NCBI RefSeq assembly: GCF_026571515.1
Contig: NW_026865491.1
Location: 1 to 64,000 of the forward strand
Origin: Ruditapes philippinarum
Lineage: Eukaryota
DNA length: 64,000 nt
Direction of reading: 5' to 3'
The notes below the pieces were generated by a model that saw only the letters and a program-made list of their open reading frames with translations, did not search any database and had not been told where the DNA came from. The first letter of the stretch is position 1, and every line of letters begins with the position of its first letter. A program made the translations under genes and the position numbers. Positions 1-60,533 of this stretch are shown here, piece after piece.

Positions 1-223
1 CAATATGATCAGAAACAACAGAGCAAGGTCAACAGTCTGACGTCAAAAACAGCGTCTCTAGAATCACAGGTGCGAAACCACACTAATGAAATAAACGGTC
101 TCCAAACCAGATTGCTGATCGAGCAGTCTAAAGTGAGTAAGGTGGACAAAGATATCACAGTCGTGCACGATGCTCTTGCACAGTTTAGGAAAACAACCCT
201 GCCCAAAATGAACCAAATAGACA
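1..223 (+). CDS. gene A internal exon (5'-incomplete)
   Basis: Frame 1 open from base 1; donor A|GTATGT at 224, phase 1. Confidence 0.8.
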
Positions 224-13872: not shown

Positions 13873-15168
13873 AATGACAGTGTAAAGCCGGGCATGCGTG
13901 CACATCTTAATGATAGTGTAAAGCCGGGCATGCGTGCACATCTTAATGATAGTGTAAAGCCGGGCATGCGTGCACATCTTAATGATAGTGTAAAGCCGGG
14001 CATGCGTGCACATCTTAATGATAGTGTAAAGCCGGGCATGCGTGCACATCTTAATGATAGTGTAAAGCCGGGCATGCGTGCACATCTTAATGATAGTGTA
14101 AAGCCGGGCATGCGTGCACATCTTAATGATAGTGTAAAGCCGGGCATGCGTGCACATCTTAATGATAGTGTAAAGCCGGGCATGCGTGCACATCTTAATG
14201 ATAGTGTAAAGCCGGGCATGCGTGCACATCTTAATGATAGTGTAAAGCCGGGCATGCGTGCACATCTTAATGATAGTGTAAAGCCGGGCATGCGTGCACA
14301 TCTTAATGATAGTGTAAAGCCGGGCATGCGTGCACATCTTAATGATAGTGTAAAGCCGGGCATGCGTGCTCATCTTTATGATAGTGTAAAGCCGGGCATG
14401 CGTGCACATCTTAATGATAGTGTAAAGCCGGGCATGCGTGCACATCTTAATGATAGTGTAAAGCCGGGCATGCGTGCACATTTTAATGATAGTGTAAAGC
14501 CGGGCATGCGTGCACATCTTAATGATAGTGTAGAGTCGGGCATGCGTGCACATCTTAATGATAGTGTAAAACCGGGCATGCGTGCACATCTTAATGATAG
14601 TGTAAAGCCGGGCATGCGTGCTCATCTTTATGATAGTGTAGAGCAGGACATGCGTGCACATCTTAATGATAGTGTAGAGTCGGGCATGCGTGCACATCTT
14701 TATGATAGTGTAGAGCCGGGCATGCGTGCACATCTTTATGATAGTGTAGCGTCGGGCATGCGTGCACATCTTTATAATAGTGTAGAGTCGGGCATGCGTG
14801 CTCATCTTTATAATAGTGTAGAGTCGGGCATGCGTGCTCATCTTTATGATAGTGTAGCGCCGGGCATGCGTGCTTATCTTTATGATAGTGTACAGCCGGA
14901 CATGCGTGCTCATCTTTACGATAGTGTAGCGCCGGGCATGCGTGCTCATCTTTATGATAGTGTAGCGCCGGGCATGCGTGATCATCTTTATGATAGTGTA
15001 GCGCCGGGCATGCGTGCTCATCTTTATGATAGTGTACAGCCGGGCATGCGTGATAATCTTAGTGATAGTGTAGCGCCGGGCATGCGTGCTCATCTTTATG
15101 ATAGTGTACAGCCGGGCATGCGTGCTCATCTTTACGATAGTGTAGAGCTGCGGATGCGTGATCATCTT
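13873..15168. repeat. 36-bp minisatellite, ~36 copies
   Basis: Unit AATGATAGTGTAAAGCCGGGCATGCGTGCACATCTT; identical copies on the left, increasingly diverged to the right. Confidence 0.97.
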
Positions 15169-16734
15169 TGCAGCCTGGCCAAACACTATACTGATGGCAG
15201 CTCGATTTCTGCATTTTAGTATTGAAAGCCCTTAAATTTTTTATTTACCGCTCTATATTCATAGTAGGTCAAGTCCAAAATACCTTTTCAGCAGATTAAG
15301 GGCAATTCCATGTTTTATTCAGATATGCCACCGAAATAAATAATAGAAAGAGCATCGAAACACGAGGCTATCTGATTTGTACGAGGGGGCGTAGCCCCAG
15401 AGTATTAATCAGATTGCCGAGTGTTTTGATGTTCTTTCTCTTTTGTATCATAGCCAAACATAAAAAACACGTTCCCTGTTGTCACAACATGAAACCCCGG
15501 CAAAAAAGGAACCAATGAACGAACATATGAATATGATATTTCTGTCGCTTTCCCTTTCTCTGCCGTCACAATATGTAAACCCCAGCAAATATGAGCCAAT
15601 CAATGGGCATGCTCTGGAGTGCGGGTAACTAATACCTGCACTCTAGTTAACGCACGGTGCATGTATGTATACGATTTAACTCTGACACATTTTCAATAGA
15701 AAGGTCCTCAAACTATGATACAATAAGATGTTACAGCAATACAAAATGTGTTTTAGTAAGGATAAACTTAACAACTGAAATTTTGATGACACTGATAAGG
15801 CACATCTTGAAAAGTGAACCTGCGATGTTTTTGACGATGTCAAAATCGAATGTAATAATTATAAACGTTCGTCATTTTTAAATAACTAATTATCTGTTGT
15901 TGTTTTCTGATTAATATTCTCTGTTTAAAAAATAACAACATTAGGGTACGCTTCCTGTAAAATTAATTAAGATATGGAAAAAACATTAGAAAGCAAAATA
16001 CAAGAAGTTGAAGACGATATAAATTGAATTGTCAAGAAGTTAACAAGAAAGTTGAAGATGATTATTGATATTTGTCATTTATCGGTTATCGGTCTGGTGC
16101 GCGATGTTTGTCCAATTTATCTAAACGCGTGACGGCGTTACAAACGTCTAAAGTGTGTTTATATTTCCCGCATTATATTTCCATGTGAATTCCTTTACAG
16201 CTTGAATATCTTGACGACGCGGTTATACTGTTCGCTGTTTCTCCATTGAAACCTTTACTTTGTGCTTTATTCTCTTCATTCCAGGAGCTGTAAAGGCGAC
16301 ACAAAACATAACATAAGGTCATAGTTGTGAATTTAAATTGTAAACAACTTGTTTGATCCTCACAATGAGTTTGTCTACTTAATTTAATAGGATGGTGTAT
16401 AAATTTGGAGGGTATCTATAAGAGGTTTTATCTAGACAGGGATCTTGCTCTTCTATTGGATATAGCTGACATATCAGGAAACAACATTAAACATGCAAGG
16501 GAGGGCGCACGTTATTGAACTTTGTTAATCAACCTCTTAACATAAAATAACTCGCAACAAGTGGAGGACTTATAAACGATTAGTAGATGTTTATTTATTG
16601 TTTGGAAATATTTTTTTCATACCAGATTTCGCAGCTGAATTATTCAAGTGTTCATTATCCATTCGCTCTACAACAAAATATATTTAGTGAATTTGTAGAA
16701 ACATAAACAAAGTTACGCTTATTTTCTTGCCAAG

Positions 16735-17368
16735 ATGAATTCATATATTTGTTACTTTATGTGTATCGGTGCATTATCATGCATTGCACGTATTACGGCC
16801 ATGTCACAGTGTTCCGTAAAGGTGCCAGTACCTGACATATCGTTCTGTGATGCAACAGGAGCGCTGGAAGAAAAGGTCGACGCGAACATTTATGAGACAA
16901 GCGGACGTGTAAAGGCGGTTCAAGACTTTCAATACGATGCTTTTGAATTATTTAACCATCAGCTGACGACGTTATTAGACGATTCAAAAAGCACGGATAT
17001 GAACATTCATGATGTTGAAGAAGAAATTTTAACTTTAAAACGATTTGTGAGTCGTGTACTGTCGGACTCGGTTAACGACGAGATACCAGCAATCAGCGGA
17101 ACGAGACATAAACGTGCTGCATCTGTAAATCAAACCCAACAACTTCTGAACTCGGCTAAAGCAACCTTCCAACAAGAACTTGCCAAAATTACAAATAAAT
17201 TGGCCATTATTTCAAGTTCTATCGCTAAAGAAGCCGCTCAGACTACAGCTATACACACGAAACTTCTGAACGAACTTACTTCAAATCAACTAACACTAAC
17301 GGCTACAGAGCAGCAATTAAACGCCCTTGATACAACAATCAGAAATGTCCTTAAAACAACAAAACCAG
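16735..17368 (+). CDS. gene B exon 1
   Basis: AAGATGA start; MNSYICYFMCIGALSCIARITA...VLKTTKP; CAG|GTACAC donor, phase 1. Confidence 0.85.
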
Positions 17369-18800
17369 GTACACATGTAGTTTGTTATCATAAAAATATA
17401 CTTATTCTAAAATAACAGTTTAGAAAATAATCATGATTCTCGAATTCCAAAAATGAACCAAGTCAAACGTATGATAGATAAGGGTAAATGTTAAATTATA
17501 TTTAGTTGTAATATAATGATAATATAACAATAATGAATGACATATATAAGTTAGATAATTTAACGTTATTTTGCCGACAATAATGAAACAATAATTGGTG
17601 GGAACACCGGGAAAATGGAAAAACAAAATACATTTCATTGCTGCATGTTCTCTGTAAAGACTTGCCATGTATACATACTGCTGTTCTTTTGTTTTTACAA
17701 ATATTCCCTGTTTATAAACCCCATGTTTGTATCATCTATGATGCTCTGAGAGAATTTGATTTATATTTGAATTATATCAGAAAGCATACCTTAATGATAT
17801 GAATCAAATATATATCTGATATCATATTACCGTACTAGCAGCTATGCTACTGAAAAGAAATATTACCCAGGCGTATTTATATGCAAACACGTCGCATCAC
17901 TGTCATAGCATCATTACGTTTTTTAAATATTTGTTTTCATGTTTCATTTGATGATGTATCATCACATTCAAATTTAGAATAATAGAATTTCACTCATTGA
18001 ATAAAGTGGTATGCATTGTAGTTGTGATAACTTGTTAAAGTGACATGATGCTCATCTTTTTCATCTTATTGCCAGTACAATAATACTGAATTGCTTTCAT
18101 CTGTTTAAATATATCTGATACAGTTGTTGTAGATTGACATTTTAATTTAAATCATGTTCTTTATTGATATTTGATAATTGATATTGATATGAAATGAATG
18201 AAAATACATGTGCTCAACACTCAACACAGATACCTACAACATCAGCAGTGGGTCTTTGTCCGAAAATTGCAATTTAATATTAAACATCGGGGACACGTCT
18301 AGTGTCATGTAGGGTCTAATGGTGATTTTATGCGAAACATATCTCAGCCTATACGAAAATAAAGAACAAGTTAAAATATCTAAATAAAATATTGATATAA
18401 AAAAGTTGAAACATTGTAGGTGTAGGCGGTGTGAGTCTGTCGGCAGTGAGGCAACAAATCACGGACCTGGTAATAAACGCCAGTGTAGCAGAACAAATTA
18501 CACAACGACAACTAGACAACATCGAAAAACTGGTAAGAACAAAACATTTAAATAACACTAACTTTTTAGTGTGTCTGTGTATGTTGGGAGGTAAAAAAAT
18601 ACCTCCATGTGTTAATGTCAAGCGGTGACTTGAAAGCTACTTGGTGAAGAAAACTCTAATTTACCCGAGCATGCATCGAAAATAATAGAAAATACATGTA
18701 ACAGTTTATTCATATCATTTATATATTTTTCAGAAATCAAGATATGTTATTTGTGTTTTCACGGTTGTATGTCTTTATGTGTTGCCTTCTTTAAATAAAG

Positions 18801-18861
<61 letters not shown>

Positions 18862-21800
18862 TGTTTTTGGACATTGACGGAATTTTCTTCATTGGTTTTG
18901 ATGTTTTTGATCTCGTTTCAATGATTGAAAGAATTTCATTTGATTTCATTAGCTTACTGGATATGCTGACTATAGACAAAAGCAGTGCAATAGTCAGTTG
19001 ATATACAGGGCATGTTTGTCTTTTTTAAAGCAGATTACCGACAATTACTTTAAAATGAGACTTTTTTCTTTCAACAAGCCACAACACGTAGGCGAAGTAT
19101 TCCAGTTTCCCTTTCATTCCATTCATTATTTTTATCATAAAGTAATCTCAAATGGTTTAGAATAAACTGTGAATGTTAAAGCTATTAATATTGAAAGATG
19201 GACTATGTTTTGACGGTTTTTAGAATACCGAAGCTTCATATTTAATCATTTTTAGTGAAAATCAATGCAACCCAAAAATTCTGGGGTATCAAGTGGGAAG
19301 CTTCAAGGGCATCTTATAACAAAACTTTCATATGTTAACACAAACACTGTGATCGTATGGATATTTAATGTATTAACTTTTTAAAATATTTATTTCACGT
19401 AAAAACTGGGTTAAAAGAAGAAAAAAACTCGACGATTAAAAAAGATTTAGTTCAAATCTTTATGTCAAACTCGGCTGATAAATGCGGCCATGGTGTCGCT
19501 AAAATAGCAGAATTGTTTGGTCTTCACGCATTGTGTTTCGTCCACAGATATATGAGCCGCGTCACGACAAAACCAACATAATGCGTTTGCGACCAGCATG
19601 GATCCAGACCAGCCTGCGCATCCGTTTGCAGTCTGATCAGGATTCATGCTGTTCGCTATCAGTTTAACTACTTGTAATAGGGTTTGTAAGCGAACAGCAT
19701 GGATCCTGATCAGACTGCGCGGATGCACAGGCTGGTCTGGATCCATGCTGGTCGCAAACGCATTATGTTGGTTTTGTCGTGACGCGGCTCATATGTACAA
19801 ATTCTTTAGAAATATAAAACGTCAAGAAAATAAAGATAGCAGCAATGCTTTACTCGTGTATGTCAATGTTACAATAAATTATACTAATATTCTCTTCTAA
19901 TTTATCATTAAACATGTACAACTTGAAATGAAACCTTGCAGATATATTCATGACACAGCGCCTTTAAACGATTAATATTGAAAATAAACATATTGCTTAA
20001 AGGATGTCCGGACCTTAAATGCTCTTCTCTAAATTCCGTTCTTCATTTCTGACATTATAATGTTGTGCTTCATAACATTATTGGCAATTTTTACTAAGAC
20101 TATAAAATACAATAACACTTGCTCAACAATACAAAGGTCCAAGCCATTTGAAAACAACTTCCAGCATATTTCTGCTTCTCACTATTGTTCAAATACAGTA
20201 ATGTTGATTGTGAGTTTCATCAAAATAATCACAAATGTGTCAATTTTACAAGATAACGATTTTCCTCCTTAAACAATCTGTTGCTAAATGAAATAAATAA
20301 ATTTATAAAACAAATAAATTGTATATACTAGTTCGACTTGTAAAGGTTGAACAAGAAAACATGGGAATCGCACATCTCTTATGTTACTATTTCAGGAACA
20401 ACAAATGGAGCGTAGTGAACAAGCTGCAGGAGCTAAGCTGACTTCTCTCGAGACAGATATTAGTAACCTTGACAACCGTCTCCCAAACATAACTCATCAA
20501 ATTGCCAATCTGAAAGGTAATTGTGAGGTTTTTTTTTTAAACAACTCTTATAAATATATTTAAGTTATGGCTTTATTTAATAATTTCTTATCAAATTCTA
20601 TTATTTTAATGTAATGAACACAAGAATATCAGTAGAAAAATTTGAAATAGCATAGATTCAAGACGTGTATTTCTTTGAAGATGTCCTACGTGTTCCCAAA
20701 TGTTCTTTTTGTACGTGTCCTGTCCTCTATTTTTTTCGTGTAATTATTTCATTCTGTACATTTTGTACGTGTCTCCAAACGTTTTGGTCGGTATTACAAA
20801 CATATATGCTGCGCATTATTAGTGTGAAAAGTATTTGCAATAGATTTGCATTATACTGCGTCACATGTCCGTGTGCGTAAAGAATCTCCCTGCGGTTTTT
20901 ATCACGCAGATAGACTCTTCATGCCACATGTATAATAAGAAATAGAAATATATCACGACGAATCTGAAGGTTCATCTGTCATGGGATTGACATGTTTCAA
21001 CTGTTGTTTAATTGGCTGGAAATATATTTGAAACTGTTTCATATAGCAAGAACTTCTTTTTTCCATAAGGATGCGTGTCATTACTTATAATAGAACGGAC
21101 ATACCCTCGGTTATCTTCCATTTATACCTGTTCATCTATAACTGAAATAGCTCATCAAAGACGCACACAAATGCGAACAAAGCAAGCAGGCCCAGTGAAT
21201 AATTTCAAGTTTAAACATATGACCATGAAATCTCAAAATCAAAGAGACCACTGTGTTAATTTTTTTCTACAAACGTTTTAGTTACCGATCAAATCGACGT
21301 ACATTTCAAGTAATTTGACAAATAAATGTTTTAGTCTTAGCAAAAGCAACTAACAAAATCCCTAAAGAACGTCTAAATCGGTAAAGTTGAAAAGGTTTCC
21401 GTTGTGCCTGTTCATGGGTTGTAGTGGTAAATGTAAAGCTAGTAACGTCCACGCCCCCTAGCACCGGCTTTTAGAAAACAGTAGTATGACAAGTCAACGG
21501 TGAAAATTAAAAACATTCACAAATGTGTTCAAGTCTAAAAAAAGAAACAAGTGGTTTATCATTTCTATAAAATGATTAAGGGTAAAAAAGAAAAAGCATT
21601 AACGCCGCGGTTTCAAGTATCTTTTTTCTATTTTGAATGGATTTTCTTCAAATAAAACCTGTAAGTATAATAGATCTTTGCTCGGTTGTTTCCTACTTTC
21701 TGTAAAACCTCTTTGCTCTGATTTCCGGTACTTTTTGCAATCAGCATTCCGATCTATTAAATTATCTCAGAAACATTAATAATAATGGAAATTCAGAGAG

Positions 21801-24627
21801 ATACAAAACTTTCCTTGCAAGTGTTTATCAACTTTATTTGAAAAGTATAAAATGATATTCTGAAGTGGGCTTTACACAGACTTTCCCCTAAATGTCACGT
21901 GGGATTGTTAAAAATGTCATATATTCGGCGATATTCATAGTGGTATTTCGACAACAATTTGATTGATCAATACAATGTCTGAGTGATTAATTTTGTTATT
22001 TCTTGTAACAGGAGGAGAACGTATATACGAGGACAAGATTGGTACATTTATCTACAACACGACACATGACGTCGCTGATCTGACAGCGAAACAGGCCACT
22101 CTACAACAGGAAGTGACAAAGGTTTGATTTTATTTACATTTTTTTAAATTTCTTCCCCGAATTCTGTCCATTTTGCTCCGAATACTAGTTAGTTTCTGCT
22201 GAGCAACTGATTTAAGACAACCTATAATGCTGCATTAACTGCATCAACGCCAATACAATGTTTTCTGACTTCAAATAAGACTACATGTATGCATTTTCAG
22301 TCCGTGATTATAACTAAAGAACACGCGCTCTTTTAAAGAGTATTCTGTAAGTAAAGTAAGCGAGCAGTCAGATGGCTCTTTAAGAACAAACGAGAAAATT
22401 CATCCAATCCAACCATTTAGAAGTAATATCAAACTTTGTAAGAACATATAATTTTATACCTTACGGAGAATTTCTGATGATATTGTAGACCTTTAAGCAA
22501 AATTTCTCTTTTTTGGTATTCGTGTACCACGAATGTAACGGGTCTTACATAAAGAAATATCACAAAAAATAAACATAAAGCAAAGCACTTAATTGGCCTT
22601 ATTATATACTTGTCACCAATAATTCTCGGCACGTGAACAAATCTCGTTCTACTGTCTACATGTATAAGTATTTTTTTATGCAATTATGTTGTAACCTTTG
22701 TTTATATTTGTCAAAAATTAATACTTCTCGGCAACGTTAACAAATATTTTTCCTTCTTTGACATTTGTTTCTTACATGTATAAGTATTTCTTATGCAAAC
22801 TGTTACATATATCATAACATTTGTTCATATCGTTAGCAATACTTCTCGGCTAATTGTAACTTGTAACACTTTACAGATTTGACAATAAATTGTATGTTTA
22901 CAATTTTATGTTAAATAAAATTTATGTTATGTTATGTTATATACTGAGAATATATATGTACCAATATAATTTGCTAAACGATGTAAACTATAAAGTGGGT
23001 CATCTTACTGTAAGAACAATTGAATTCATTCCATGGACTTTAATAATATGTACAACAATTGACACGTCTGCTCGCACCAATGACGGAACTGAGAGATGAC
23101 ATAGACAATGTTCATGGCATTAAAGTCTCACCGTGCACCCAAACGTTTACAATAATTGTAAGGATATGATAATGGTGAACAAATACCTTTACATTGACAA
23201 CAGACACCGATGATAATGTGTTGTTTCTGAAACTTTTTACCAGGAAAAATATAGGTCTATGCATATAACGGTCAGTTCATGTCTTGATGGAGTCGTGATC
23301 GTGTAATTTGTTGTTATCTGGAACTCGGCAAATGTGGGTTTTTTTCTAAGCTAATCCCTCGGGACAAAGAAACTTTTATCGTTATAGCTACACGGTGCAC
23401 TACCGGTCATAAAAGTTTAGTCAACCAGTTGCGCTAATTTTCGAAGCTATAACTGTAAAATTGCGTTTGCACCCAAAGATTTGCTGGGGGAAAAACCAAA
23501 ATATTCTTAATCCGGAGTTAATCTATTCCGGAGTAGGTTTATTGATTACTCTGTTGTGTAAATGTGTTTTGATTATTTTGTACTATTCATTGTTACAGGC
23601 AGGTCAAGATGCATTCAGCGCAACAATGAAACTCGGGGCTTATGAACAAAATCTCACACAGTTCAGGTAATACTGCCAGCATTATTTCTACTTTAATCTT
23701 TCCCATGAAAACACAACACTAACAATACAATTAATTAAAATAGAATAAAAACTTTGTAAAAATAATAACACAAATGATAATATTACTGGTGAACAAACAT
23801 TCACAATAATTGTAATAATATGATAATGGTAATTGGTTAAGCATATCTTAAATATAGAGAAATTAAAAATGTCACACATACACTAAAATATTATCAGTGT
23901 CATGGACTTGCAGTATTAAAGAGGCTGTCCTTTATCATTTCAAAAATGCCATCAGTCGATCGTGTTACATCATGTCGCGCGATTCTTTAGTCGAATATAA
24001 GAGACGTTGCATGGTGGAATACCGATATATTTCTATCATAATTAAGTAGAAAAGCATTTTTTTTGCATAAAGAGCGCCAAAATAGTATACAAGTGTTCAG
24101 GTTTTTTCTTCTTCATGTTTTTATTTTCTTTTATTGAGATATTAATTTCATATATTAAAAGAAAGGTTTTCCACTAGGTTACAGAAATTCGACATTACAA
24201 GCTGATCAATGATGATTACCTTTAATACTTCTATAAGTTAAGTTGGAATGTGGAAATTTCATAAAAAGTGAGTTCCCATGTCCCCTTTACTGTCGCCAAT
24301 TTTCAAAAAAAGTAATATATATTAATGAGCCGCGTCACGACAAAACCAACATAATGGGTTTGCAATCACCATGGATCCAGACCAGTCGCGGATGCGCAGG
24401 CTGGTCTGGATCCATGCTGGTCGCAAACCCATTATGTTGGTTTTGTCGTGACTCGGCTCATTTATTTTATTTTCAGACATAATGTTGATGGTATCCAGAG
24501 CATAGTTACGTTCATTCAGCCAATCCAACAAGCTCAGAGCGGACAAATTCTTCAATTAAAGAAAACTCTAGCAGACAACATCCATGTTATGCAGTACGCG
24601 TTCGGGGTCCGTTCTACACCACCTTGA
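16735..24627 (+). CDS. Uncharacterised secreted coiled-coil protein (gene B), 398 aa, 6 coding exons: 16735-17368, 18420-18532, 20396-20516, 22012-22121, 23599-23666, 24477-24627
   Basis: All introns GT-AG with compatible phases (1,0,1,0,2); 1197 nt ending in TGA; hydrophobic N-terminus; RHKR at aa 124-127; AATAAA 83 nt after the stop. Confidence 0.85.
18420..18532 (+). CDS. gene B exon 2
   Basis: TGTAG| acceptor (a second in-frame acceptor would start at 18426); GVGGVSLSAVRQQITDLVINASV...IEKL; CTG|GTAAGA. Confidence 0.75.
18802..18859. repeat. (ATT)n microsatellite
   Basis: About 19 perfect units. Confidence 0.97.
19554..19790. mobile_element. Foldback MITE family A copy 3
   Basis: GAGCC...GGCTC ends; exact TSD ATAT at 19550-19553 and 19791-19794. 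Confidence 0.9.
20396..20516 (+). CDS. gene B exon 3
   Basis: TTTCAG| EQQMERSEQAAGAKLTSLETDISNLDNRLPNITHQIANLK; AAG|GTAATT. Confidence 0.85.
22012..22121 (+). CDS. gene B exon 4
   Basis: TAACAG| GGERIYEDKIGTFIYNTTHDVADLTAKQATLQQEVTK; AAG|GTTTGA. Confidence 0.8.
23599..23666 (+). CDS. gene B exon 5
   Basis: TTACAG| AGQDAFSATMKLGAYEQNLTQF(R); CAG|GTAATA, phase 2. Confidence 0.8.
24327..24459. mobile_element. Foldback MITE family A copy 4 (internally deleted)
   Basis: Both termini kept; ~100 bp of the centre missing. Confidence 0.85.
24477..24627 (+). CDS. gene B exon 6 (last)
   Basis: TTTTCAG| (R)HNVDGIQSIVTFIQPIQQAQSGQILQLKKTLADNIHVMQYAFGVRSTPP*. Confidence 0.8.
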
Positions 24628-24709
24628 TATAAATCTGCTAGTGTTTCAAAAAACAAACTGTTTACTTAAATGACCCTTCCATGAAGTTGTTGTATATTTT
24701 CTAAATTAT

Positions 24710-24715
24710 AATAAA
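24710..24715 (+). terminator. Candidate polyadenylation signal of gene B
   Basis: First AATAAA downstream of the TGA. Confidence 0.5.
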
Positions 24716-25573
24716 GTTGATTAAGGCGAGACAAAAAAATTGTTTGAATGTAGACAAACCGATAAAATAGAGAAGTTCTTACGCACACAAATATTTTAAC
24801 ACACTCACCTCGATAATCAGAATTGTCTTCTTAAATCAAGAAAACAAATTTATCACAAAATTTTAAATAATTCTTACCTGTAAATAAAAAAACAGGCTAA
24901 GTTATGAATATTTGTTCTTTATAAGGTGGTGTCTCTTAGAAATCAACTTTTATTCATTTGTTCTTTTTATATTCATGATTTCTTATTTAGCTGGCCTCAT
25001 TCTGTACATATGTTTGATTGACCATTAAAAAGAATTTGATGTGAAAATTTTCCCCATTAGCAACTTCAGATGTTAATAATCAGCGTCAGGTGACCTTACT
25101 TTTTATATTAGGCCTATGCAATAATACATAATGTTTATAACTGCTGATATGCCTGTTACAATTATATCAACATTAAAATAAGCATCCATTTTTGGATCGG
25201 GGTCAAATTTATTTTAATCAACCTTTTGAAGAAAATATGATCTTGGAAAGTAATTAACAAAAGCTTTCCAGAAACTTTCTGTACCTTCTGTCATTTCAAG
25301 GAAACATTGAGACCTCTAATGATAATCTGTCCAGATTTCGAATTTAAAATATGAATTTTGACCACACTAATCTTTGTGATATTTAGATCAGCCACGGTCA
25401 TTTCTACACAATTAGGGAACGGGATGTTTATAAGGAAATTTCTTCCCTTTGATTGTGTTTTACGTCGCACCATCACAGTAAATGTCATACGGCGACATTC
25501 CAGCTTATCTAGTGGAGGAAGACCTCAGGAGTCACTCCATTATTTCAAGCACCCAAGTACAACCACCCACGTT

Positions 25574-26527
25574 ATGGCGGCGTGGCCAAATGGTTAATGC
25601 GTCGGTCTAGTAATCTAAAGATTCCTGATCGCTTGGGTTCAAGCCCCGTCAGGAGCAAGCCGTTGTTTCCCTGAGCAAGAAACTTTACATTCATTGCTTA
25701 GTACTGGTTGGTTCCAGGTTTCAATAAGCTTATACCTTCCAATGCAACCGAACTAAAACAAGAGCCATGTTAACATGGCCATCCCCCGCCGAATGTGTTT
25801 GCTCATTGGAAGAATGTATATGTAGTAGAGCAGAATAATTCAATTTTAAGAGGTCTTTTGGTTATGAAAACGGATGGCTGAATTAATTACAGATTTGAAA
25901 CCTATGTGAATACTGATGGCTGAAAATAACAAAGGGCAATAACTGAAAAATAATGTCGGGTAGAGTTATCATTCTTGTGTGCTGAACATCTCCTCAATAA
26001 GTTCCATCCACCTATGAAGTTTCAAGTTGATACCTTAACACTTTTGAGATAAGTTCCGGACAAAAAGTATGGAAAAAACCTCAAAAATTACAAAAAGGTT
26101 GCAAGTTATCATTCTTGCGCACAGCATTCCTCCTCAATAAGACAAATCCACCTATGAAGTTTTATGTTGACATCTCAAAGACTTTTTGAGTTATGCTCTA
26201 CTCAGGTGAAAAATTAAGTATGAAAAATAACTAAGGGCAATAACTCAAAATTATGAGAATAGAGTTATCTCATGTGCATGAATCCTGAGTGGTATATCAC
26301 TTAGTTCATGTGATTTCAAAGCTTTGAGTTGTGCTCTGGACAATTAGAAAGCAAATTGCAAATATGCAGGCGAGATATCATCTTGTGCATGCACTCCTCC
26401 TCAATATGATCTATCCACCTATGAAGTTTCAAATTGACATCTCAAATACTTTTTGAGATATGCTCTGGACAAAAATGTCGGCTACTTCTATACCCCCCCG
26501 CCGGATGATAATAAATTTGTATAAACT
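25574..26527 (+). mobile_element. tRNA-derived CORE-like SINE (body 25574-25756, tail resumes ~26510-26527)
   Basis: A box GTGGCCAAATGG, B box GGTTCAAGCC, CORE-like GTTTCCCTGAGCAAGAAACTTTAC; 13-bp TSD AACCACC(C/G)ACGTT at 25561-25573 and 26528-26540. Confidence 0.75.
25757..26512 (+). mobile_element. HINE/pearl-like element E1 with degenerate internal tandem repeats
   Basis: Starts AACAAGAG; units carry AAGGGCAATAACT and CCACCTATGAAGTTTCA boxes; CCCCCGCCG near both ends. Confidence 0.7.
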
Positions 26528-28451
26528 AACCACCGACGTTCCGTAAGCTAGCTTCCACAAAATTAGGAAATTTCCAATTTAATCTTAATCTCTTGCGTTT
26601 AAGCCACCAACACGCCCACTAAGCGATGGTACTTGCCAAATAGCTAAGCTTTGGGCATCAGTCAGGTTTAAATAGGTCTATTAATATCAAGTGACAAATA
26701 TTGACACATGTTTCGGTTAACATAGCAATGCTATATGCAAAATATCTCAACTCTTTGCATTTTAATTTCACACAAAAAGACTTGTGTGTTTTCCTTTGAA
26801 AGTTTTGACCAGAGGAAGTCCAAATTTGTGCTCTGTATATCGTCCGATTCGATTATGAGGAACATTTCTGCCAGATAATTTCAATTTTCTTTGATTAGTC
26901 GATATGGAGCAGAATTCAAACAGACTGTGACCTTGACCTGAGGAAGGAAGGTCAAACCTGCGCAAAGCACATTGCCTCATTAAGATTAAGGTTTAGCAAG
27001 TTGTTTCAATTTCTTACAGTCAGTTCAAAAGATTACACATGAAATTGCTAACAACCTGGTGAACAACAATATACGATACCCTGATAATATGAAAATGTAT
27101 TAGGACAGAAAACAAATAACACAAAATAAAATCAAATATGATTTTATTCAATAAATACATGATAGTGATGCAGTTATAACGTTTACAGGTTATCCCATTT
27201 CCAAGAAAACAGAAGCTTACATCTACCGAGACAAAGTTTTCAAATGTAATCAAAATATTAAATACATATACATGTAGCATAAAAATTCTTCCATAAATGC
27301 TTAATATAGAAATATCTTGAAATCTTCACTTCAAATATATTTGCTTATTAATTTAATGTTTTTCTAAACCTACATGTATGTGATATTTGTGAACGTTCGG
27401 AACATACCTTATCTTGCACGCATGAAATGATACAGAATATTACATAACCACCAATTAGCTGAAGAAGAGGAGCACTTGGCATCCAATTTAGAGGTTTTGG
27501 ATTCAAGTCACATAAGCAGTGCGATATTTTTTTCTCACTTCCACACTGGTTCCAACATCCAGGAAAAAGTCAATTGGTGTGACTTAAAACACATGTTAAC
27601 GTCCATCAATAGAAAAAACAACAACATAACAATACAACTAAAAGCTAAATCCGTTTAAATATGTTGAAAAATTCTAGTTGTAAGTCTATCAAATTTAAAT
27701 AAAATCTGTTAAACACCAATTCTTATTTAAAACCTTTAAAGCTCTATTAATAATACAAATAACATCTAATTATTAACAGTTTCTTTACTTCACAAAAGCC
27801 AAAGCCAATTGTTGTCATATTTAACAAAATATAACGCTTAGCACTTCAGTATATTTCAAATTGACATAAGACTAAAATTCATAATTCCTGGATAATTGTA
27901 ACAAAAACATCATTTCAGGCAGTTGCAATTTAGTTAAGTCTCATAGTCTAAAACATTTAATATGTATTTTTAACAGTCAAACAATTTGCAACTCAAATCA
28001 CAAGATTAAGCTATGAAATAAAACATTAACTACATTAATTATGTGTGCACCAAAAAGAATATATGATAAAATGTGGACTTCTCTACACTGATTATTGGAT
28101 AAGTTACCACGCTGTGTCAGTACCGCTGTTATCATACCTAACAATACAATGATTATGGCAAAAAGCAAAACTTCATTTAAATTAATGTCCGGATTGATTC
28201 ATGATTCATACACTTATTGAAACAAAACACTTAGACTATTGCATACATTCAAAAAATCTTCATATATTCAAGATAAAGTGTCTGTGTCTTTAACAATTCA
28301 TGCATCTAAGTTTGTTAATAAGGAAGGAATACTTTGAGAGTTGACCTTCATTTTTTTCACCACTGTTTCTACGCCATTTAAAATTTGCCAATAATAAATT
28401 CTCCTGTCTTTAATGAAGTCCTGGACTAAAGTGACTTGATTTTAAATGTTT

Positions 28452-28600
28452 TTAAAACTGTTCCTCAGCATCCCCACATCTGCTTGCACTGAAATCAGCA
28501 AACCTTCCTATGATTTTATCAATAGAACGTTCCCCGTGCACGTTGTTGTCACGTGTACGTACATTAGCTGACCCAGAATGCGCTTCCTTCTGACCTACCA
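28452..28600 (-). CDS. TARS1: TARS exon 20 (last)
   Basis: [49 protein letters not shown]. Confidence 0.95.
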
Positions 28601-31600
28601 CTGTAATGTAAATAAAAAAATTTATTGTTCACAATGTCATAGTTTTAAGGGAAAATATTTTCTTTTTCAGCCTTAGCCATGTTTTACAGAAGCCAAGGTT
28701 CATTATTACTCTCACTGGCTCTGACAATAGAATATACAGTAACTTTTTAGACAATATCCCTCCATACATTATTTTCTAGTACAATCAGGAATCTGTTTAA
28801 AACCTCAGATCTTCTGTGACCTAGTAAATAGATTCTGCACAAATAACCCGCAATGTAACATCCTGGGTGAGATTTCAGACCTGACATAGCAAGGTAAGAA
28901 AGATTCAGTCACAACCGTAACAACTCACCTGTAGAGGCCCCTGCTCTCTCCTTGTCAATATAACATGAAGAGTAAAGCAAATTTCAAGCCTTGTGCTGTT
29001 TACTTACCTAGAATAAAGTTATATTGAGCTAACTGCGAGTTTCTAACTTTTTTATTCAAAGTATTGGAGGCATCAAGTTCTGCATCACATAGAAATCCAG
29101 CATCATGGATTTGTTGTTTTACCTGTAAAATAATCAACACACCTCAGGTAAACTAATCAACTGGTTCATAATTAAACTCATTATTAATAGACATGTGACA
29201 TAAACAGCAACCTAACAGTATGTCTATATTAATATCATTAAATATATACTGTATGAGAATATCTAAATACCAATATTTATTATATTTTCAAATTCATGAA
29301 GGTGCAACCTATGTAATACAAAATATGACTTCAATAATTTGATGTAATCAAAAAATCGAAAGGGTAGTGATAATGCAGGGTTCATACAGACATCCAATGC
29401 CAAAATTCAAGGACTTTTTAAGCACTATTTAAGCATGTATTCCCATTTTTAAGCACATTTGTTGCACATATATATCGACATAATATTCAACCTAAGAGGG
29501 ATAGTTTATTCAGCATTTTTTCTTGAATTATACAAATTTTCTGGCCAAATTAAGGTTTTATAGAAAAGAACAACAAAGGGTGCATCAAATACAAATTAGT
29601 TCAAAACAAGTGCAATTTGTCAACTTATTGTTACCTTGAGCAAAGTTTAACATTTCAATGATTTTGATACTAAATTGGATCTTTTTCTTATTTTGTTAAC
29701 TGTTGATTTTTATCGACACTATGTCATTCAATCATTTTCAAGCATATTTTCAGCAAAAGCACTTTTTAAGCACTTTTCAGACAGTAATCAAATTCAAGGA
29801 CTTTTAAGCACTATTTTACATTTTTAAGCACTTTTTAAGACAGGGACTGAAATTTAAGCACTTTTTAAGACTGTACAAACCCTGTTTAAATGACAATGTA
29901 TAAAGTTTGAAATAAACTACATTGTTTTATCTAAATTTCATATGGTACGCTTTTCATTAGGTTAATCAAACAACCTACACTATGCATGTAATGTGTATAA
30001 AGAACTAGAACTCCGCGAGTCAGATGTGTCGCCTTGTGAACAATGTAGTTTAGGGGAAATGGCCAGGACAAAAATGAAATATGAAAAATAACAAAGGGCA
30101 ATAACTAAAAAAATAATACGTGCAGAGCAGCAGTTTCTGTACACTGCACTTCTTATCAATAAGATCTATCATTCTATGATGTTTCAAGTCCATAGCTTTC
30201 ATACTTGAGGAGAAATGACCAGGACAAAAATAAAGTAAGAAAATCAACAAAGGGCAATAACTCAAAAATAAGAAATGCAGAGTATCAGTTCTTATGCACT
30301 GCACTTCTTTTTAATGAGATCTATCATCCTATGAAGTTTCAAGTCCATAACTTTTATACTTTCGGAGAAATGGCCTGGACAAAAATAAAGTATGAAAATT
30401 AACAAAGGGCCATAACTCAAAAATGAAGAAATGCAGAGTACCGATTCTTGTGAACTGCATTTCTTAATAATGAGATCTATCATTCTATTAAGTTTCAAGT
30501 CCATAGCTTTTATACTTAAGGAGAAATGGCCCGGATAAAATTAAAGTATGAAAATAAACAAAGGGCAATAACTCAAAAAATAAGAAATGCAGAGTACCAG
30601 TTCTTGTGCACTGCATTTCTTCTTAATGAGATCTATCATCTTATGAAGTTTCAAGTCCATAGCTTTTTTAGTTGAAGAGAAATGGCCCGGACAAAATTAA
30701 AGTATGAAAATTAACAAAGGGCAATAACTCAAAAAATAAGAACTGCAGAGTACCGGTCCTTGTGCACTGCACTTCGGGTTATTGAAAGAAGCATGCATAC
30801 CAAGTTTGAAGTCAATCAGACTTATAGTGACTGAGTTATGCTCCGGACAAGCTTTAGCGGACGCCGACAAAGACACCGCCGACAAAAGTAACCCCTATAT
30901 GTCACCTTTTCAAGGCGACATAATAAAGGCAAGTTTTCTATATACAACAACTATAATGCCGAGGATCCTACACTGAACAACTGGTATGACTTATTTGTCA
31001 CCATCTTGAAGCTGGCATGCATTAACGGTACTAAATTATGGAAATTAACTAAAAGAAAATCAAAGCCCAAGTTCAAATTAAAATGTAAATATAGTTTATT
31101 TCTGTCATAAACTAACAAGGAGAATATTTCCTTTTTCAACTCTAGTCTGGAACTGACAATAATCTTATGCATTGCAGTCGCATTACTGACCCTTCAAAGC
31201 CGGATTCTTATAGAGAATCCAACTAAAATTCCCACCATTACCAAGAGATGGGTTCAAGGTTAGAATGTTACCTTACATCTGATGGCTTTGTGAATAATTC
31301 TTAAATATACATAAGACAATTTGAAATTTAAAGCATGGAAACACGATTCAACAAATTTATCAAACATTAACTTTATTTAATTAATTGAATATACCTTCAA
31401 AGCATAATCATCAAATGCTGGAGCCACTGGTATTACTATAGCTTGCCTTGGGGACAACCAGAATGGCCTGAAATCATCATTATATCGCTACTATTATCAT
31501 TATAAATATATCCAAATTAAACCAAACGTGTGCTAAATGTCAAAATATGATTTTATCTAATTATAGGCTGTTTTTCTTCAAGTTTTATTGTGTATGAAAG

Positions 31601-34600
31601 ATAGCAAGAATAAATTTAATGTTCTGAATTCCATCAAAATTTGTTCTATCATTTGACAACCTTCTGAAAAGAATTTGAGTTAACAAGTCATATATAGCTT
31701 GTTTAACAACTCTATAGTAAGTCAGTTATTCAGTACAAAAACGAAGAAGTAATGTTTTCAGTTTTTAACATTTTACTTTAAATGATTTAACAGAATTTGT
31801 TGCGCCTGTTGTTTATTTATAATTTACATGTACACTATGGAGTAATGGATAATTGAGTATCTGTGAAGTAAGCGGTTTCACAGGTTCTTTATATGTATTC
31901 ATTTAAGATATGTTTACCATTTTCCACCATAACTTTCACAGAGGATAGCAATCATTCTCTCCACGGAACCCAGTATAGCACGATGGATGATCACAGGTCG
32001 TAACTTCTCCCCGTCAGCAGACGCCCTGGTAACATACATGTACATTCATAATATATATAGAGGATATTTGTTTGTTTTGCATGTAAGATTGAAATATAAT
32101 TTCTCTGAGTGAACACCAGATGTAATATTTTCACGAGTGGCGTAGCCACGAGTGAAAATATCATAGCTGGTGTTCACGAATGAAATATATTTCAATCTTA
32201 TATGTAAAACAAATAAATTTTCTTTTTATTTCATGTGTTTTAAGTGATTTTAAGTAATTTTTACTGAATTTGCCGCGTAACGTCGCGCATTCTCCTTTGT
32301 GACGTCATCACATCATGACGTCACATCATCAATTTTGAAATATAGTTCTGTTAAATTTCTCTAATTTTGTTACGTTTTTAACATGATGTATGCTGACATC
32401 GACTTTCTTTTCCTTCAGAAGCAAAATTTACGCATGGCGGCATTTATTTCTGCCTGTTATTCCATTTAGTTATGATTTTCTTTTCATCCGCATTCATATA
32501 TAGTCCGGCTACAGTGAAAATTATATTTTATAAATTTCACTAGTGGTTTATCAGAATATAATCATCTGATATATTACAATAAAACACTGGAAAGCATGAA
32601 ATAAAATTATTATATTGTTGGATGTTAAAACAGAAATTTATGAAATTGAAATAATAAGTTTAAATATTCATTTATAGCAGCCAACAGAATTTAATTAATT
32701 CTTCTGTTTATTGCCAAATAAATGCGTCAATAGAGAGACAAATATAACAATGGTCGACAAACAAATTTAGCAATAGACATATATTTTGTTTTAATCCAAT
32801 GGACAACATATACTATTATGTAGATTGCTCATGAACAGAATTGGGTATGGATAATAAACAATGCTGTTGTTTCACCGACATCTAATATTTCTATGGGTAA
32901 TACAGACATGAAAATAATTAGAAATTGTAATCTATGCATTACTTCAAGATAGGTAGTGGCATCTTACCAATTGTCACCAGTCTTAAAATCGGAATCAAGA
33001 ATCCCTAAAGATTGAAATTTAGATATCACCAAAGACGATATGCCAGCATTTTATTAAAATCTCATTTTCTCAAAGTTCTATTTAGGCATTCTTTTTTCAT
33101 ACAAGGGTATGACTAAAATCTTGTAAATAAAGATGAAAGCATACATACAAGTGTAAGCTTGCATATGTCAACTTACCCAATGTAGCCTAGATTAAATCTG
33201 ATAGGCAACTGGAAATCAAGTTGTATAGTGGCACACTGATGGGACCTTTTTAATGCATCCATAATGGTGATGTCAATCTAAATGTAAACACATTTTCTAT
33301 CTGTTACTATAGTAATGTTAGTTAACTGCAATTAAACTTACATAATCACTTTAAAATGGACAGCTTTCATCCCTACTTAAACCTTTCATTCAATATAAAA
33401 TTAAACACTTACACCTCTTTCAATTCATGGATGTTGACTGTTCTCAATGTTAGACAACAGCAACCTTGCAAACTTTAATACAGGATCGTGTTTTAACAGT
33501 AAAGAAAGCAAGGTAAATAATTATGTATGAATTTTATTTGACATTGTACTATGTTAAAAATAGATATTTTCATTCAATCATAATAAAGCAGCACGCCTCT
33601 AGATTCATTCCAATTTTCATGAAAATTTTGAAAATGTATCTAAAAGTAAAATATTGTGAAGTAAACAAAGAAAGTAATTCAAATATTTCACACATTGCTA
33701 ACAGCACGTACAACCCATGTAAATTACCAAAATGAGGACAAAAAAATGCAAAAATAGCCCTTACTGCGGTAGTAACGCAGTAGAAATATTGTGATTAATA
33801 CTGCAATAATCTCACAAAAGATATAAATTGTAACTTGAATCTTAAATCATTTTTCTTTTTTTTTACAATTTTAGTATGTTTTGTTTATTTTCTTCAGGCA
33901 TGCAGCTTTTAGTACTTTATATAGATCACTTCTGTTACTATATATAGATTACATCTGTTACTTACTTTTGGACCATAGAAAGCACCATCACCTGGGTTCA
34001 ACTCCCATTTGAGACCAGACTTATCCAAGCACGTTGCAAGATCCTAGAAATTGTCAAAAGTAATGATGTTTAGAACATTTTGTGGCACCACTTTGATACC
34101 ATCACTTAACATAATGTTATCATATTGAATGATTCTCATTTACAGTTGTAGAATATTATTAACACTGATTGGATAACATTACTGAGTGTAAACAGAAATA
34201 AGCATAACTTTAAGCCCCACCCCAAAGCATCACTTAAACTGGAGGCATAAAATTATAAATATATTAAATTTTCAAGATATAAACTAAAATATCATCTATA
34301 AATTATGTCTATATTTGATTTTTATCAATTTTATTATTCATTTATCTCTGAAATTACATGACATGTATTCTGATGACAACTATCAAGCACTGTTAAAAAA
34401 ATCATTAACCCATGTATTTTTATTTTATGTTCATATAACACAAATTTCAACAGACTACTTTTTTAATGTATATCTATTCTGATTATTTGTTTCACAAATC
34501 ACCAACCTTCTCAGCCATATCCCACAATGAAACTTCACCTAGGAAACCTTCAGGTCGGGTTGACAACTTCAACTCAAATGTGAATCCAAAAACACCATAC

Positions 34601-60000: not shown

Positions 60001-60533
60001 ATCAGAAAGAGTAGAAGTTCGTGCGTTATAATCACCCAACAAGAAATAGTAACTATCGCTGTTTGATTTACTTTCAAACATGTAATATAGAGTCAATGAG
60101 TCTATCAAAAATATTATTTTCAACTAAAGATTGTCGGCTGCTTCCATCAGGCAATACATAACATAATCCTATATATACATCTTTACTAATGTTTAATTTT
60201 ACAGACGATAACTTAACCCAAAGTATATCGTCCTGACTAATATAAATAACGTGTCATCTGAAACAAGATCATTTCGTACATATATGATAATCCCCCCTGA
60301 ATTTCTTTTACTGTTACTTTTAACTAATTTTCTATGCAACACAAAATGTTCAAAAATTGTCTTTATCTAAACTTGAAAATTCATTCGTCCATGTTTCAGT
60401 AAATAATACAATATCATTATTTTCGAAAACATTGTTCAAAAAAATCAGTATTTAACTTGTTTTTGTGCGTTTTGTGACTAGTCTTGTATGTTCATCAGGG
60501 CACATCTAATCGAACAAACCTTCTCCAATCGTC
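57004..60533 (-). pseudogene. LINE B ORF2, multiply frameshifted
   Basis: APE, RT and CCHC motifs are spread over short ORFs in the expected order. Confidence 0.85.

What the first reader, a model, noticed from the sequence alone, without database searches (positions are those of the whole stretch)
16735..24627. Secreted, probably convertase-activated coiled-coil protein with no globular head
Seen: hydrophobic leader (~aa 1-22); CSVKVPVPDISFC; D/E-rich segment; RHKR (17104-17115); then ~270 aa of Cys- and Trp-free, T/Q/A/L-rich heptads broken by PGVGG and GG hinges, with five N-glycosylation sequons (NQT, NAS, NIT, NTT, NLT). Established: R-X-K-R is the furin consensus, and a C-x-x-x-x-x-VP..C motif ahead of a coiled coil recalls angiopoietin/olfactomedin N-termini, which normally end in FReD or OLF domains that are absent here. 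Inference: a propeptide-gated self-assembling extracellular fibre or matrix protein (shell, periostracum, mucus, egg coat or haemolymph clot).
Basis: partly seen in the sequence, partly recalled or inferred. Interest (0 to 1): 0.7.

Follow-up and report, generated by a model that had tools for sequence, protein, structure and literature searches.

The report
Headless secreted coiled-coil protein of clams
This clam gene encodes an unstudied secreted, rod-like protein with a conserved cut site; its front piece seems to fold back over the rest like a clamp, perhaps controlling assembly, but where it acts is unknown.

Summary
Six GT-AG exons (16735-24627) encode a 398-aa secreted protein, and an independent database protein has the same junctions and end. 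It belongs to a small uncharacterised family of 22 sequences. The 4 named ones are heteroconch bivalves (Mercenaria, Mya, two unionids), and no Pfam match reaches its cut-off. No member has a globular head: 8 of 10 full-length members end at the same residue. R-x-[KR]-R sits at the same place in 19 of 22, after a poorly conserved linker, but both unionid members lack it. The 'propeptide' is more conserved (51%) than the mature chain (41%) and is itself a helix. The GG 'hinge' is not conserved. AlphaFold, hydrophobic mirroring and charge complementarity all point, weakly, to an antiparallel hairpin of the pro helix on the first mature helix (i+j about 250), with RHKR at the turn. Best model: a convertase nicks this clamp, freeing a glycosylated, probably trimeric coiled-coil rod to assemble outside the cell. 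Cleavage, oligomer state, tissue and function are untested. Angiopoietin/olfactomedin membership fails (no head); the N-terminal resemblance is only a lead.

The parts
16735..17368 (+). Coding exon 1 (aa 1-211): leader, Cys loop, pro helix, linker, convertase site, first mature helix
16735..16800 (+). Predicted signal peptide aa 1-22; likely cleavage 3 residues before Cys26
   Evidence: hydropathy; all 10 full-length members have a hydrophobic leader before the first Cys; cleavage position inferred from the -3,-1 rule
16810..16848 (+). Cys26-x11-Cys38 loop with VP; probably one disulfide; 68% mean identity, the most conserved stretch apart from the cut site
   Evidence: disulfide inferred
16837..17073 (+). 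Acidic 'pro' helix aa 35-113 (net charge of aa 24-110 is -9); proposed antiparallel clamp on the first mature helix
   Evidence: AlphaFold helix 35-113; charges; register tests
17074..17103 (+). Variable linker aa 114-123 (low pLDDT; length differs in 9 of 9 homologues, by -12 to +14)
17104..17115 (+). RHKR furin-type convertase site aa 124-127, P1' Ala; lies at the predicted hairpin turn
   Evidence: cleavage itself inferred
17125..17358 (+). First mature coiled-coil helix (CC1) aa 131-208, with one stutter, His174 (nt 17254-17256; His in 17 of 21) and Asn184 at heptad d (nt 17284-17286; 21 of 21)
18420..18532 (+). Exon 2 (aa 212-249): end of the indel-tolerant PGVGG hinge, start of CC2, conserved sequon N231
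20396..20516 (+). Exon 3 (aa 250-290): heptads, sequon N280
22012..22121 (+). Exon 4 (aa 290-326): small-residue kink, conserved sequon N305
23599..23666 (+). Exon 5 (aa 327-349): heptads, sequon N344
24477..24627 (+). Last coding exon (aa 349-398, stop): conserved terminal motif ending A-F-G-x5-P (aa 375-398, 55% mean identity)
24710..24715 (+). First AATAAA after the stop (second at 24883); candidate poly(A) signal
   Evidence: use not shown

Best explanation
A secreted, N-glycosylated, all-helical coiled-coil protein of heteroconch clams. Shown: gene structure, expression as spliced, leader, family, absence of a head domain, conserved convertase motif in the non-unionid members. Inferred: (1) after signal cleavage, Cys26-Cys38 closes a small loop; (2) the acidic helix 35-113 folds back antiparallel on helix 131-208 (register i+j about 250), masking its core, with RHKR in the turn; (3) a furin-type convertase nicks the turn in the secretory pathway, giving pieces of about 12 and 30 kDa; (4) the nick, perhaps with a pH or salt change sensed by His174 and Asn184, loosens the clamp so that the 271-aa chain forms a parallel, probably trimeric coiled-coil rod (about 35-40 nm if extended, one flexible hinge at 208-218) that serves as a structural component of a secretion or extracellular matrix. 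Unionid members keep the same helices with a shorter, uncleavable loop.
For: Site in 19 of 22 sequences, with P1' Ala in all 20 that have a basic pair, while the preceding linker is 19% identical. Indels are nearly confined to the linker (9 of 9 homologues) and the PG hinge (6 of 9); each helical block has one exception in 9. The exon-1 AlphaFold model (21 sequences, pLDDT 72.7) has helices 35-113 and 131-208, and its structural matches are mostly antiparallel hairpins (p85 iSH2, dynein stalk, SMC, WXG100) over residues about 58-196. i+j=250 is the best of 88 pro/CC1 registers for hydrophobic mirroring (r 0.55; next antiparallel 0.41) and the best antiparallel register for charge complementarity (1.9; reached by 44 of 2000 heptad-preserving shuffles). 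The rival parallel register (r 0.51) scores only 0.29 on charge. The register pairs Gln66 with invariant Asn184 and centres the turn on residue 125. Asn is 7.5% at d versus 1.4% at a; polar d residues mark trimeric adhesin stalks (PMC13580157, passages). The six sequon columns that lie in assigned heptads are all outside a/d. Precedent for RxxR cleavage preceding matrix assembly: nematode cuticle collagens and ZP proteins (PMC11304992, passages).
Against: Both AlphaFold models have low pTM (0.32, 0.34); single-chain predictions tend to fold neighbouring helices together (own knowledge), and the full-length model (pLDDT 46) packs the three mature helices into a bundle instead. Other segment pairs reach equal hydrophobic correlations (0.57-0.59), so the mirror is not unique. 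A parallel register (offset 108) scores 2.0 on charge. The 250-252 band result (1 of 2000) was chosen after looking, and the best register falls in 248-252 in 324 of 2000 shuffles. Arg58 is lost in four members that keep Glu192, so that pair does not covary cleanly. Both unionid orthologues lack the site. Heptad letters near stutters were assigned by hand. Sequons avoiding a/d has about a 13% chance by itself. There are no data on oligomer state, tissue or fibre formation. Mya arenaria has the gene but is stated not to make byssus (PMC10691215, passage).
Confidence: 0.4

Rival explanations
1. ANGPTL3/4/8-like regulator: cleavage releases the N-terminal Cys-loop helix (aa 23-127) as the active ligand or enzyme inhibitor, and the C-terminal rod is a carrier or anchor.
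For: The N piece is the more conserved part (51% vs 41%). Furin releases the active N-terminal coiled-coil fragment of ANGPTL3, and ANGPTL8 has no fibrinogen-like domain (PMC12812637, passages). The Atlas first hit for aa 24-110 of the Mercenaria protein is a Noelin-1 cluster (0.77).
Against: Unionid members cannot be cut at this site. The C-terminal 24 residues are as conserved (55%) as the N piece. No Pfam match for the N piece at E up to 10. The Atlas score is below what shuffled proteins often reach.
Confidence: 0.2
2. Soluble compact helical bundle (four helices of about 75-95 aa) acting as a plasma, extrapallial or egg carrier or storage glycoprotein; cleavage is a maturation nick without an assembly switch.
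For: The full-length AlphaFold model packs helices 123-200, 210-282 and 286-382 (P0001 numbering) as a bundle matching designed three-helix bundles (Z 15.9, rmsd 6.7, 233 aligned). The helices have similar lengths, and CC1/CC2 and CC2/CC3-4 also show antiparallel mirror registers (r 0.57, 0.59).
Against: Model pLDDT is 46. The supposed second turn (GG) has no indel in 9 of 9 homologues, unlike true loops of this protein. Z of 13-16 is near the usual range for helical models (note).
Confidence: 0.22
3. Membrane-active protein: an alpha pore-forming toxin of the ClyA type, or a class I fusogen (possibly of viral origin) primed by furin.
For: Weak sequence match of CC1 to influenza HA2 (best E 7e-6 with the profile). 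ClyA pore Z 12.8, rmsd 3.7, 223 aligned; gp41 is the top row for the exon-1 model (Z 9.5, rmsd 11.0). A furin site upstream of a stutter- and Asn-d-containing helix resembles class I fusogens (recalled).
Against: No hydrophobic segment after the leader in any of 10 full-length members (best 19-residue hydropathy 0.74-1.37); the residues after the cut are polar; there is no membrane anchor. The gene has five spliceosomal introns. No Foldseek match reaches E 0.001.
Confidence: 0.05
4. A truncated annotation of an angiopoietin-, olfactomedin- or C1q-type gene whose head is encoded by further exons.
For: Signal peptide, Cys pair and coiled coil are the usual N-terminal layout of those families (PMC4463452, passages).
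Against: P0001 ends at the same stop. 8 of 10 full-length members end at the same column, and the other two add 53 aa with no Pfam match. No longer head-bearing form appeared. 0 of 38 plus-strand open frames of 40 aa or more in 24628-34100 match Pfam, and the convergent ThrRS gene ends at about 28455.
Confidence: 0.02

Closest known systems
ANGPTL3/4/8 (angiopoietin-like proteins)
   Same: Signal peptide, N-terminal coiled coil, internal furin site; ANGPTL8 is headless (PMC12812637, passages).
   Different: No fibrinogen-like domain; the part after the cut is a further 271-aa coiled coil; no sequence match found.
Olfactomedin-1/noelin and myocilin N-terminal domains
   Same: Cys near the N-terminus followed by a coiled coil; Olfm1 isoforms 2 and 4 lack the propeller (PMC4463452, passages). 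Atlas first hit Noelin-1 at 0.77.
   Different: One Cys pair spaced C-x11-C rather than CxCx9C; no olfactomedin domain in any member; convertase site; no Pfam PF12308 match listed.
Nematode cuticle collagens and ZP-domain proteins (convertase-gated matrix proteins)
   Same: RxxR cleavage linked to secretion and assembly; N-terminal coiled coil before the site in some collagens (PMC11304992, passages).
   Different: No Gly-X-Y repeats, no ZP domain; the whole chain is alpha-helical. A working analogy only.
Bivalve coiled-coil byssus proteins (Dreissena tpf1, Tridacna byssal coiled coil, Mytilus mefp-12)
   Same: Secreted coiled coils that build fibres or glue in bivalves (PMC10691215, PMC13022425, passages).
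   Different: tpf1 is 354-467 kDa, Asn-rich, intronless and restricted to Dreissena; mefp-12 is His-rich with globular domains and restricted to Mytilidae. This protein is 41.5 kDa, 6% Asn in the mature chain, and has five introns. The Tridacna protein's sequence was not seen.
Class A scavenger receptor stalks (SCARA3/COLEC12)
   Same: Long N-glycosylated coiled coil; Atlas rank 8, score 0.76.
   Different: No transmembrane anchor, collagen or lectin domain.
Class I viral fusion ectodomains (HA2, gp41) and ClyA-type toxins
   Same: Furin site before a long helix with a stutter and Asn at d; generic helical structure matches.
   Different: No fusion peptide, membrane anchor or hydrophobic hairpin.

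Membership tests
Angiopoietin/ANGPTL | C-terminal fibrinogen-like domain | tested here: not met
   No such domain in 10 of 10 full-length members or in 38 downstream plus-strand frames.
Angiopoietin/ANGPTL | Homology of the N-terminal coiled coil (as in headless ANGPTL8) | tested here: inconclusive
   No Pfam match for aa 24-110 at E up to 10; PF25443 is not among the 25 of 192 families shown for alignment A7; no profile-profile library available.
Olfactomedin | C-terminal olfactomedin beta-propeller | tested here: not met
Olfactomedin | N-terminal CxCx9C tetramerisation motif (PMC4463452) | tested here: not met
   The family has a single C-x11-C pair.
Olfactomedin | Remote homology to the Noelin-1 domain PF12308 | tested here: inconclusive
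   Atlas 0.77, 138 of 256 features shared, below the tool's 0.9 mark; no HMM match.
Furin-type proprotein convertase substrate | Conserved R-x-[KR]-R in an exposed loop of a secreted protein | tested here: met
   19 of 22 sequences; pLDDT below 50 at aa 114-130.
Furin-type proprotein convertase substrate | Cleavage in vivo or in vitro | not testable with these tools
   No proteomic data found; the searched supplements hold no matching id or motif.
Parallel trimeric coiled coil | Heptad repeat with polar residues (Asn) at d | tested here: inconclusive
   Heptads present; Asn184 at d in 21 of 21; Asn 7.5% at d vs 1.4% at a, but the polar share is about 32% at d vs 23% at a, far less skewed than the 45% vs 5% quoted for adhesin stalks (PMC13580157).
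Parallel trimeric coiled coil | Three-chain assembly | not testable with these tools
Class I viral fusion protein | Hydrophobic fusion peptide after the cut and C-terminal membrane anchor | tested here: not met
   Best 19-residue hydropathy after the leader is 0.74-1.37 in 10 of 10.
ClyA-type alpha pore-forming toxin | Membrane-inserting hydrophobic hairpin or helix | tested here: not met
ClyA-type alpha pore-forming toxin | ClyA helical-bundle fold | tested here: inconclusive
   Z 12.8, rmsd 3.7, 223 aligned, from a model of pLDDT 46, among many unrelated helical rows.
Dreissenid thread precursor tpf1 | 354-467 kDa, 19-20% Asn, intronless (PMC10691215) | tested here: not met
   41.5 kDa, 17 Asn in 271 aa, five introns.

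The most novel reading that the evidence does not exclude
A clam-specific, spring-loaded fibre precursor made only of coiled coil. A furin nick in a pro-helix/CC1 hairpin primes it; a pH or chloride shift on secretion (His174, Asn184 layers) releases the clamp; CC1 then zips into a parallel oligomer continuous with the C-terminal rod, and the rods bundle into fibres (periostracum, ligament, juvenile byssus or egg coat). This would be the priming logic of viral fusion proteins used by an animal matrix protein, and a candidate for the four-stranded coiled-coil byssal protein of giant clams, with unionids holding the uncleavable form.
Probability: 0.2. Interest if true: 0.75.

Novelty: new variant of a known kind. 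Interest (0 to 1): 0.45.

Why it matters
It defines an undescribed family of secreted proteins found, where named, only in heteroconch bivalves, with a natural contrast built in: venerid and myid members carry the convertase site, unionid members lack it. If the hairpin-clamp model holds, it is a very simple protease-switched self-assembling coiled coil, of interest for bivalve shell, ligament and byssus biology and as a design for triggered protein materials. If it is a soluble carrier, it is an ordinary lineage-specific glycoprotein that still needs a name.

Tried and rejected
Pfam scans of exons, homologues and alignment members gave only generic coiled-coil matches below cut-off. PDB sequence searches gave HA2, keratin and designed helices, best E 7e-6: read as coiled-coil likeness. 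Foldseek found no match at E 0.001 or better; VIA rows were all generic helical bundles or hairpins. Internal repeats: hhalign between the four segments gave probabilities of 1-8%, and reversed controls up to 11%: rejected. P0019 (27 matched positions, repetitive, no family motif) was dropped from all counts. Paralogy of the upstream coiled-coil gene: its middle exon scores 15.9 bits (0 of 490 reported shuffles reach it), but a reversed control of another exon scores 12.5 and the intron positions differ: not established. The first exon model was off by one base at two donors and was corrected. No tRNA gene in the window and no Rfam match in 14000-30000. Literature: the four gene ids are in 0 papers; topic searches (listings and abstract starts only) showed no description of the family. 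Supplements: 1 file of PMC9781830 had no match but uses other gene ids; 12 of 14 files of PMC8561940 had no motif match; those of PMC7148315 could not be read. Crystalline-style role: in the shipworm style proteome uncharacterised proteins make up 1.97% (PMC8561940, passages), which does not favour a major role there. Not checked: gene neighbourhood in other bivalves (no eukaryotic or metagenome contig collection open), organisms of 18 of 22 family sequences, SignalP/ProP/DeepCoil/HHpred.
Full report
Observation. The finding covers a six-exon plus-strand gene in AT-rich animal DNA. Exons 16735-17368, 18420-18532, 20396-20516, 22012-22121, 23599-23666 and 24477-24627 join through five GT-AG introns into 398 codons and a stop. 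Heptad periodicity beats shuffles clearly for aa 128-290 (0 and 1 of 1000), modestly for aa 38-116 (10 of 1000) and poorly for aa 291-398 in this sequence alone (107 and 46 of 1000). A database protein on a 1756-nt contig (P0001) has the same junctions and C-terminus with 5 substitutions, so the gene is expressed as modelled.

Family. Three homologue searches and one exhaustive profile search of 1.84 billion representatives (14 hits at E up to 0.001) gave 23 proteins. One (P0019) was dropped as a repetitive chance match, leaving 22, of which two (P0001, P0023) are 95% or more identical to the window protein. Four carry names: Mercenaria mercenaria LOC123565722 (62% identical), Mya arenaria LOC128225969, Sinanodonta woodiana and Potamilus streckersoni hypothetical proteins. 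Mercenaria, Mya and Potamilus are Heteroconchia (Sinanodonta as a unionid is recalled). The other 18 have no organism, so absence from mussels, oysters and scallops is suggested but not shown. The window protein is closest to P0006 and the Mercenaria protein (96/91 support), so the window is probably from a venerid clam (inference). No member has a Pfam match above cut-off (11 distinct full-length or long proteins; 21 alignment members), and the four gene ids appear in no paper of the library.

No head. Eight of ten full-length members end at the same column after a conserved A-F-G-x5-P motif; the two unionid proteins add 53 residues with no Pfam match. The search for longer forms (371-2000 aa, 1779 candidates) found only the 390- and 397-aa proteins. 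None of 38 plus-strand open frames of 40 aa or more in 24628-34100 matches Pfam, and a threonyl-tRNA synthetase gene ends on the opposite strand at about 28455 (shorter exons were not scanned). Twelve short members stop soon after the exon-1 boundary. For P0023 the tail equals the window's intron 1 read through; for the others this is inferred, and real exon-1-only isoforms are not excluded.

The cut site. R-x-[KR]-R is at the same place in 19 of 22 sequences, P0015 has S-R-R, and Ala follows in all 20. The linker before it is 19% identical and changes length in 9 of 9 homologues. This is the pattern of a site under selection in an exposed loop. Both unionid proteins lack it and have a linker 12 residues shorter. 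They form their own long branch (100/100; the tree has no outgroup, so gain versus loss is open). Cleavage is therefore a feature of one branch, not of the fold.

The piece before the cut is not a spacer. Among the eight site-bearing full-length members, aa 24-110 are 51% identical versus 41% for aa 128-398; the Cys loop is 68% and the last 24 residues 55%. The piece is acidic (net -7 to -13 in 9 of 10, -2 in one). AlphaFold on 21 sequences gives a 79-residue helix (35-113) and a 78-residue helix (131-208) with pLDDT 72.7 but pTM 0.34; the structural neighbours are mostly antiparallel hairpins. Of 88 registers between the two helices, antiparallel i+j=250 has the best hydrophobic correlation (0.55; next antiparallel 0.41; best parallel 0.51). 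It is also the best antiparallel register for opposite charges, reached by 44 of 2000 heptad-preserving shuffles. It pairs Gln66 with the invariant Asn184 and puts the turn at residue 125, on RHKR. Against this: other segment pairs reach 0.57-0.59, one parallel register scores as well on charge, the three lines are not independent, and the full-length model (8 sequences, pLDDT 46) instead bundles the three mature helices. I put the hairpin at about even odds.

The mature chain. Helical blocks tolerate almost no indels (one exception each among 9 homologues), while the PGVGG hinge differs in length in 6 of 9. The GG at 290-291 has no indel and is GG in only 3 of 10, so aa 219-390 is better read as one long kinked helix. 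The heptad phase shifts by stutters about every 60-70 residues. Asn184 at d is invariant, His174 at a is kept in 17 of 21, and Asn is enriched at d. Polar d residues are typical of trimeric adhesin stalks, where Asn layers bind chloride (PMC13580157, passages), but the skew here is much milder, so trimer is a lean, not a result. Conserved sequons (231, 305: 8 of 10 each; column 333: 6 of 10) lie outside the core. No member has a membrane-length hydrophobic segment, which argues against the fusogen and pore-former readings despite weak HA2, gp41 and ClyA matches.

Mechanism. Most likely (0.4 for the whole chain of steps): the protein is secreted with its acidic N-terminal helix clamped on the first mature helix; a furin-type enzyme nicks the turn; the loosened clamp lets the glycosylated chain form an oligomeric rod of about 35-40 nm (helix length times 0.15 nm, inferred) used in a secretion or matrix. 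The gene, family, missing head and conserved site are shown; the disulfide, hairpin, cleavage, oligomer and structural role are inferred. Rivals are a soluble bundle carrier (0.22), an ANGPTL-like released N-terminal effector (0.2), a membrane-active protein (0.05) and a truncated model (0.02).

Comparison. It works like convertase-gated matrix proteins (cuticle collagens, ZP proteins; PMC11304992, passages) or like ANGPTL3, whose furin-released N-terminal coil is the active part (PMC12812637, passages), but it is a member of neither. The olfactomedin N-terminus has CxCx9C and headless isoforms exist (PMC4463452, passages); here there is one C-x11-C pair and only a sub-threshold Atlas lead to Noelin-1 (0.77). 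Known bivalve coiled-coil byssus proteins differ in size, composition and range (PMC10691215, PMC13022425, passages), and Mya, which has the gene, is said there to make no byssus. Supplements of PMC9781830 (other gene ids), two files of PMC8561940 and all of PMC7148315 could hide expression or proteome evidence for this family.

Verdict. A real, expressed, uncharacterised secreted coiled-coil family of clams with a lineage-restricted convertase site: a new variant of a known kind, interest 0.45. The spring-loaded fibre reading (probability 0.2) would deserve 0.75.

Noticed in passing
window 1-223, 2487-2617, 2973-3245 (+): 3' end of another coiled-coil gene on the same strand (three exons, phases 1 and 0, no Cys or Trp, ends without a globular domain). 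Its middle exon scores 15.9 bits against the family profile, but reversed controls reach 12.5; paralogy not established.
   Followed up: partly
window 2570-2738: 56-bp unit in three tandem copies (96% matches) that repeats the end of the upstream gene's middle exon with its splice donor, just before; an assembly gap lies at about 2198-2386.
   Followed up: no
window 28455-46246 (-): Threonyl-tRNA synthetase-like gene, convergent with the finding; anticodon-binding exon at 28455-28628 and class II core exon at 35124-35381 (ThrRS identity from recalled motifs).
   Followed up: partly
window 37462-42129 (+): LINE-like element in an intron of that gene: 376-aa ORF1-like frame, then endonuclease/reverse-transcriptase-like frames of 888 and 289 aa separated by a stop (identity from recalled motifs). 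A second, decayed element lies on the minus strand at about 59000-62120.
   Followed up: no
window 13873-15168: 36-bp minisatellite, 36 copies, 94% matches, about 1.5 kb upstream of the start codon; open in several frames and could be mistaken for a repeat protein.
   Followed up: no
window about 790-1020, 1460-1695, 19555-19790, 24327-24460: Repeated element with inverted ends, two copies inside this gene's introns 2 and 5, the last ending about 15 bases before the exon-6 acceptor; looks like a MITE (seen).
   Followed up: no
window about 25582-25665 (+): tRNA-like stretch not called by ARAGORN or Rfam; perhaps a tRNA-derived SINE head.
   Followed up: partly
protein P0023 (JGI, 5861-base contig): 95% identical to exon 1 plus intron read-through, yet named 'septal ring factor EnvC': clam DNA mis-annotated as bacterial.
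   Followed up: partly
proteins P0020 and P0021 (unionids): Both carry a 53-aa C-terminal extension with a conserved Trp-containing end; P0021 has an extra 123 aa before the shared start Met, probably a gene-model error.
   Followed up: no
window 30052-30775, 36049-36710, 50303-51418: Tandem arrays of 156-163-bp units (4-7 copies), apparently related to one another.
   Followed up: no
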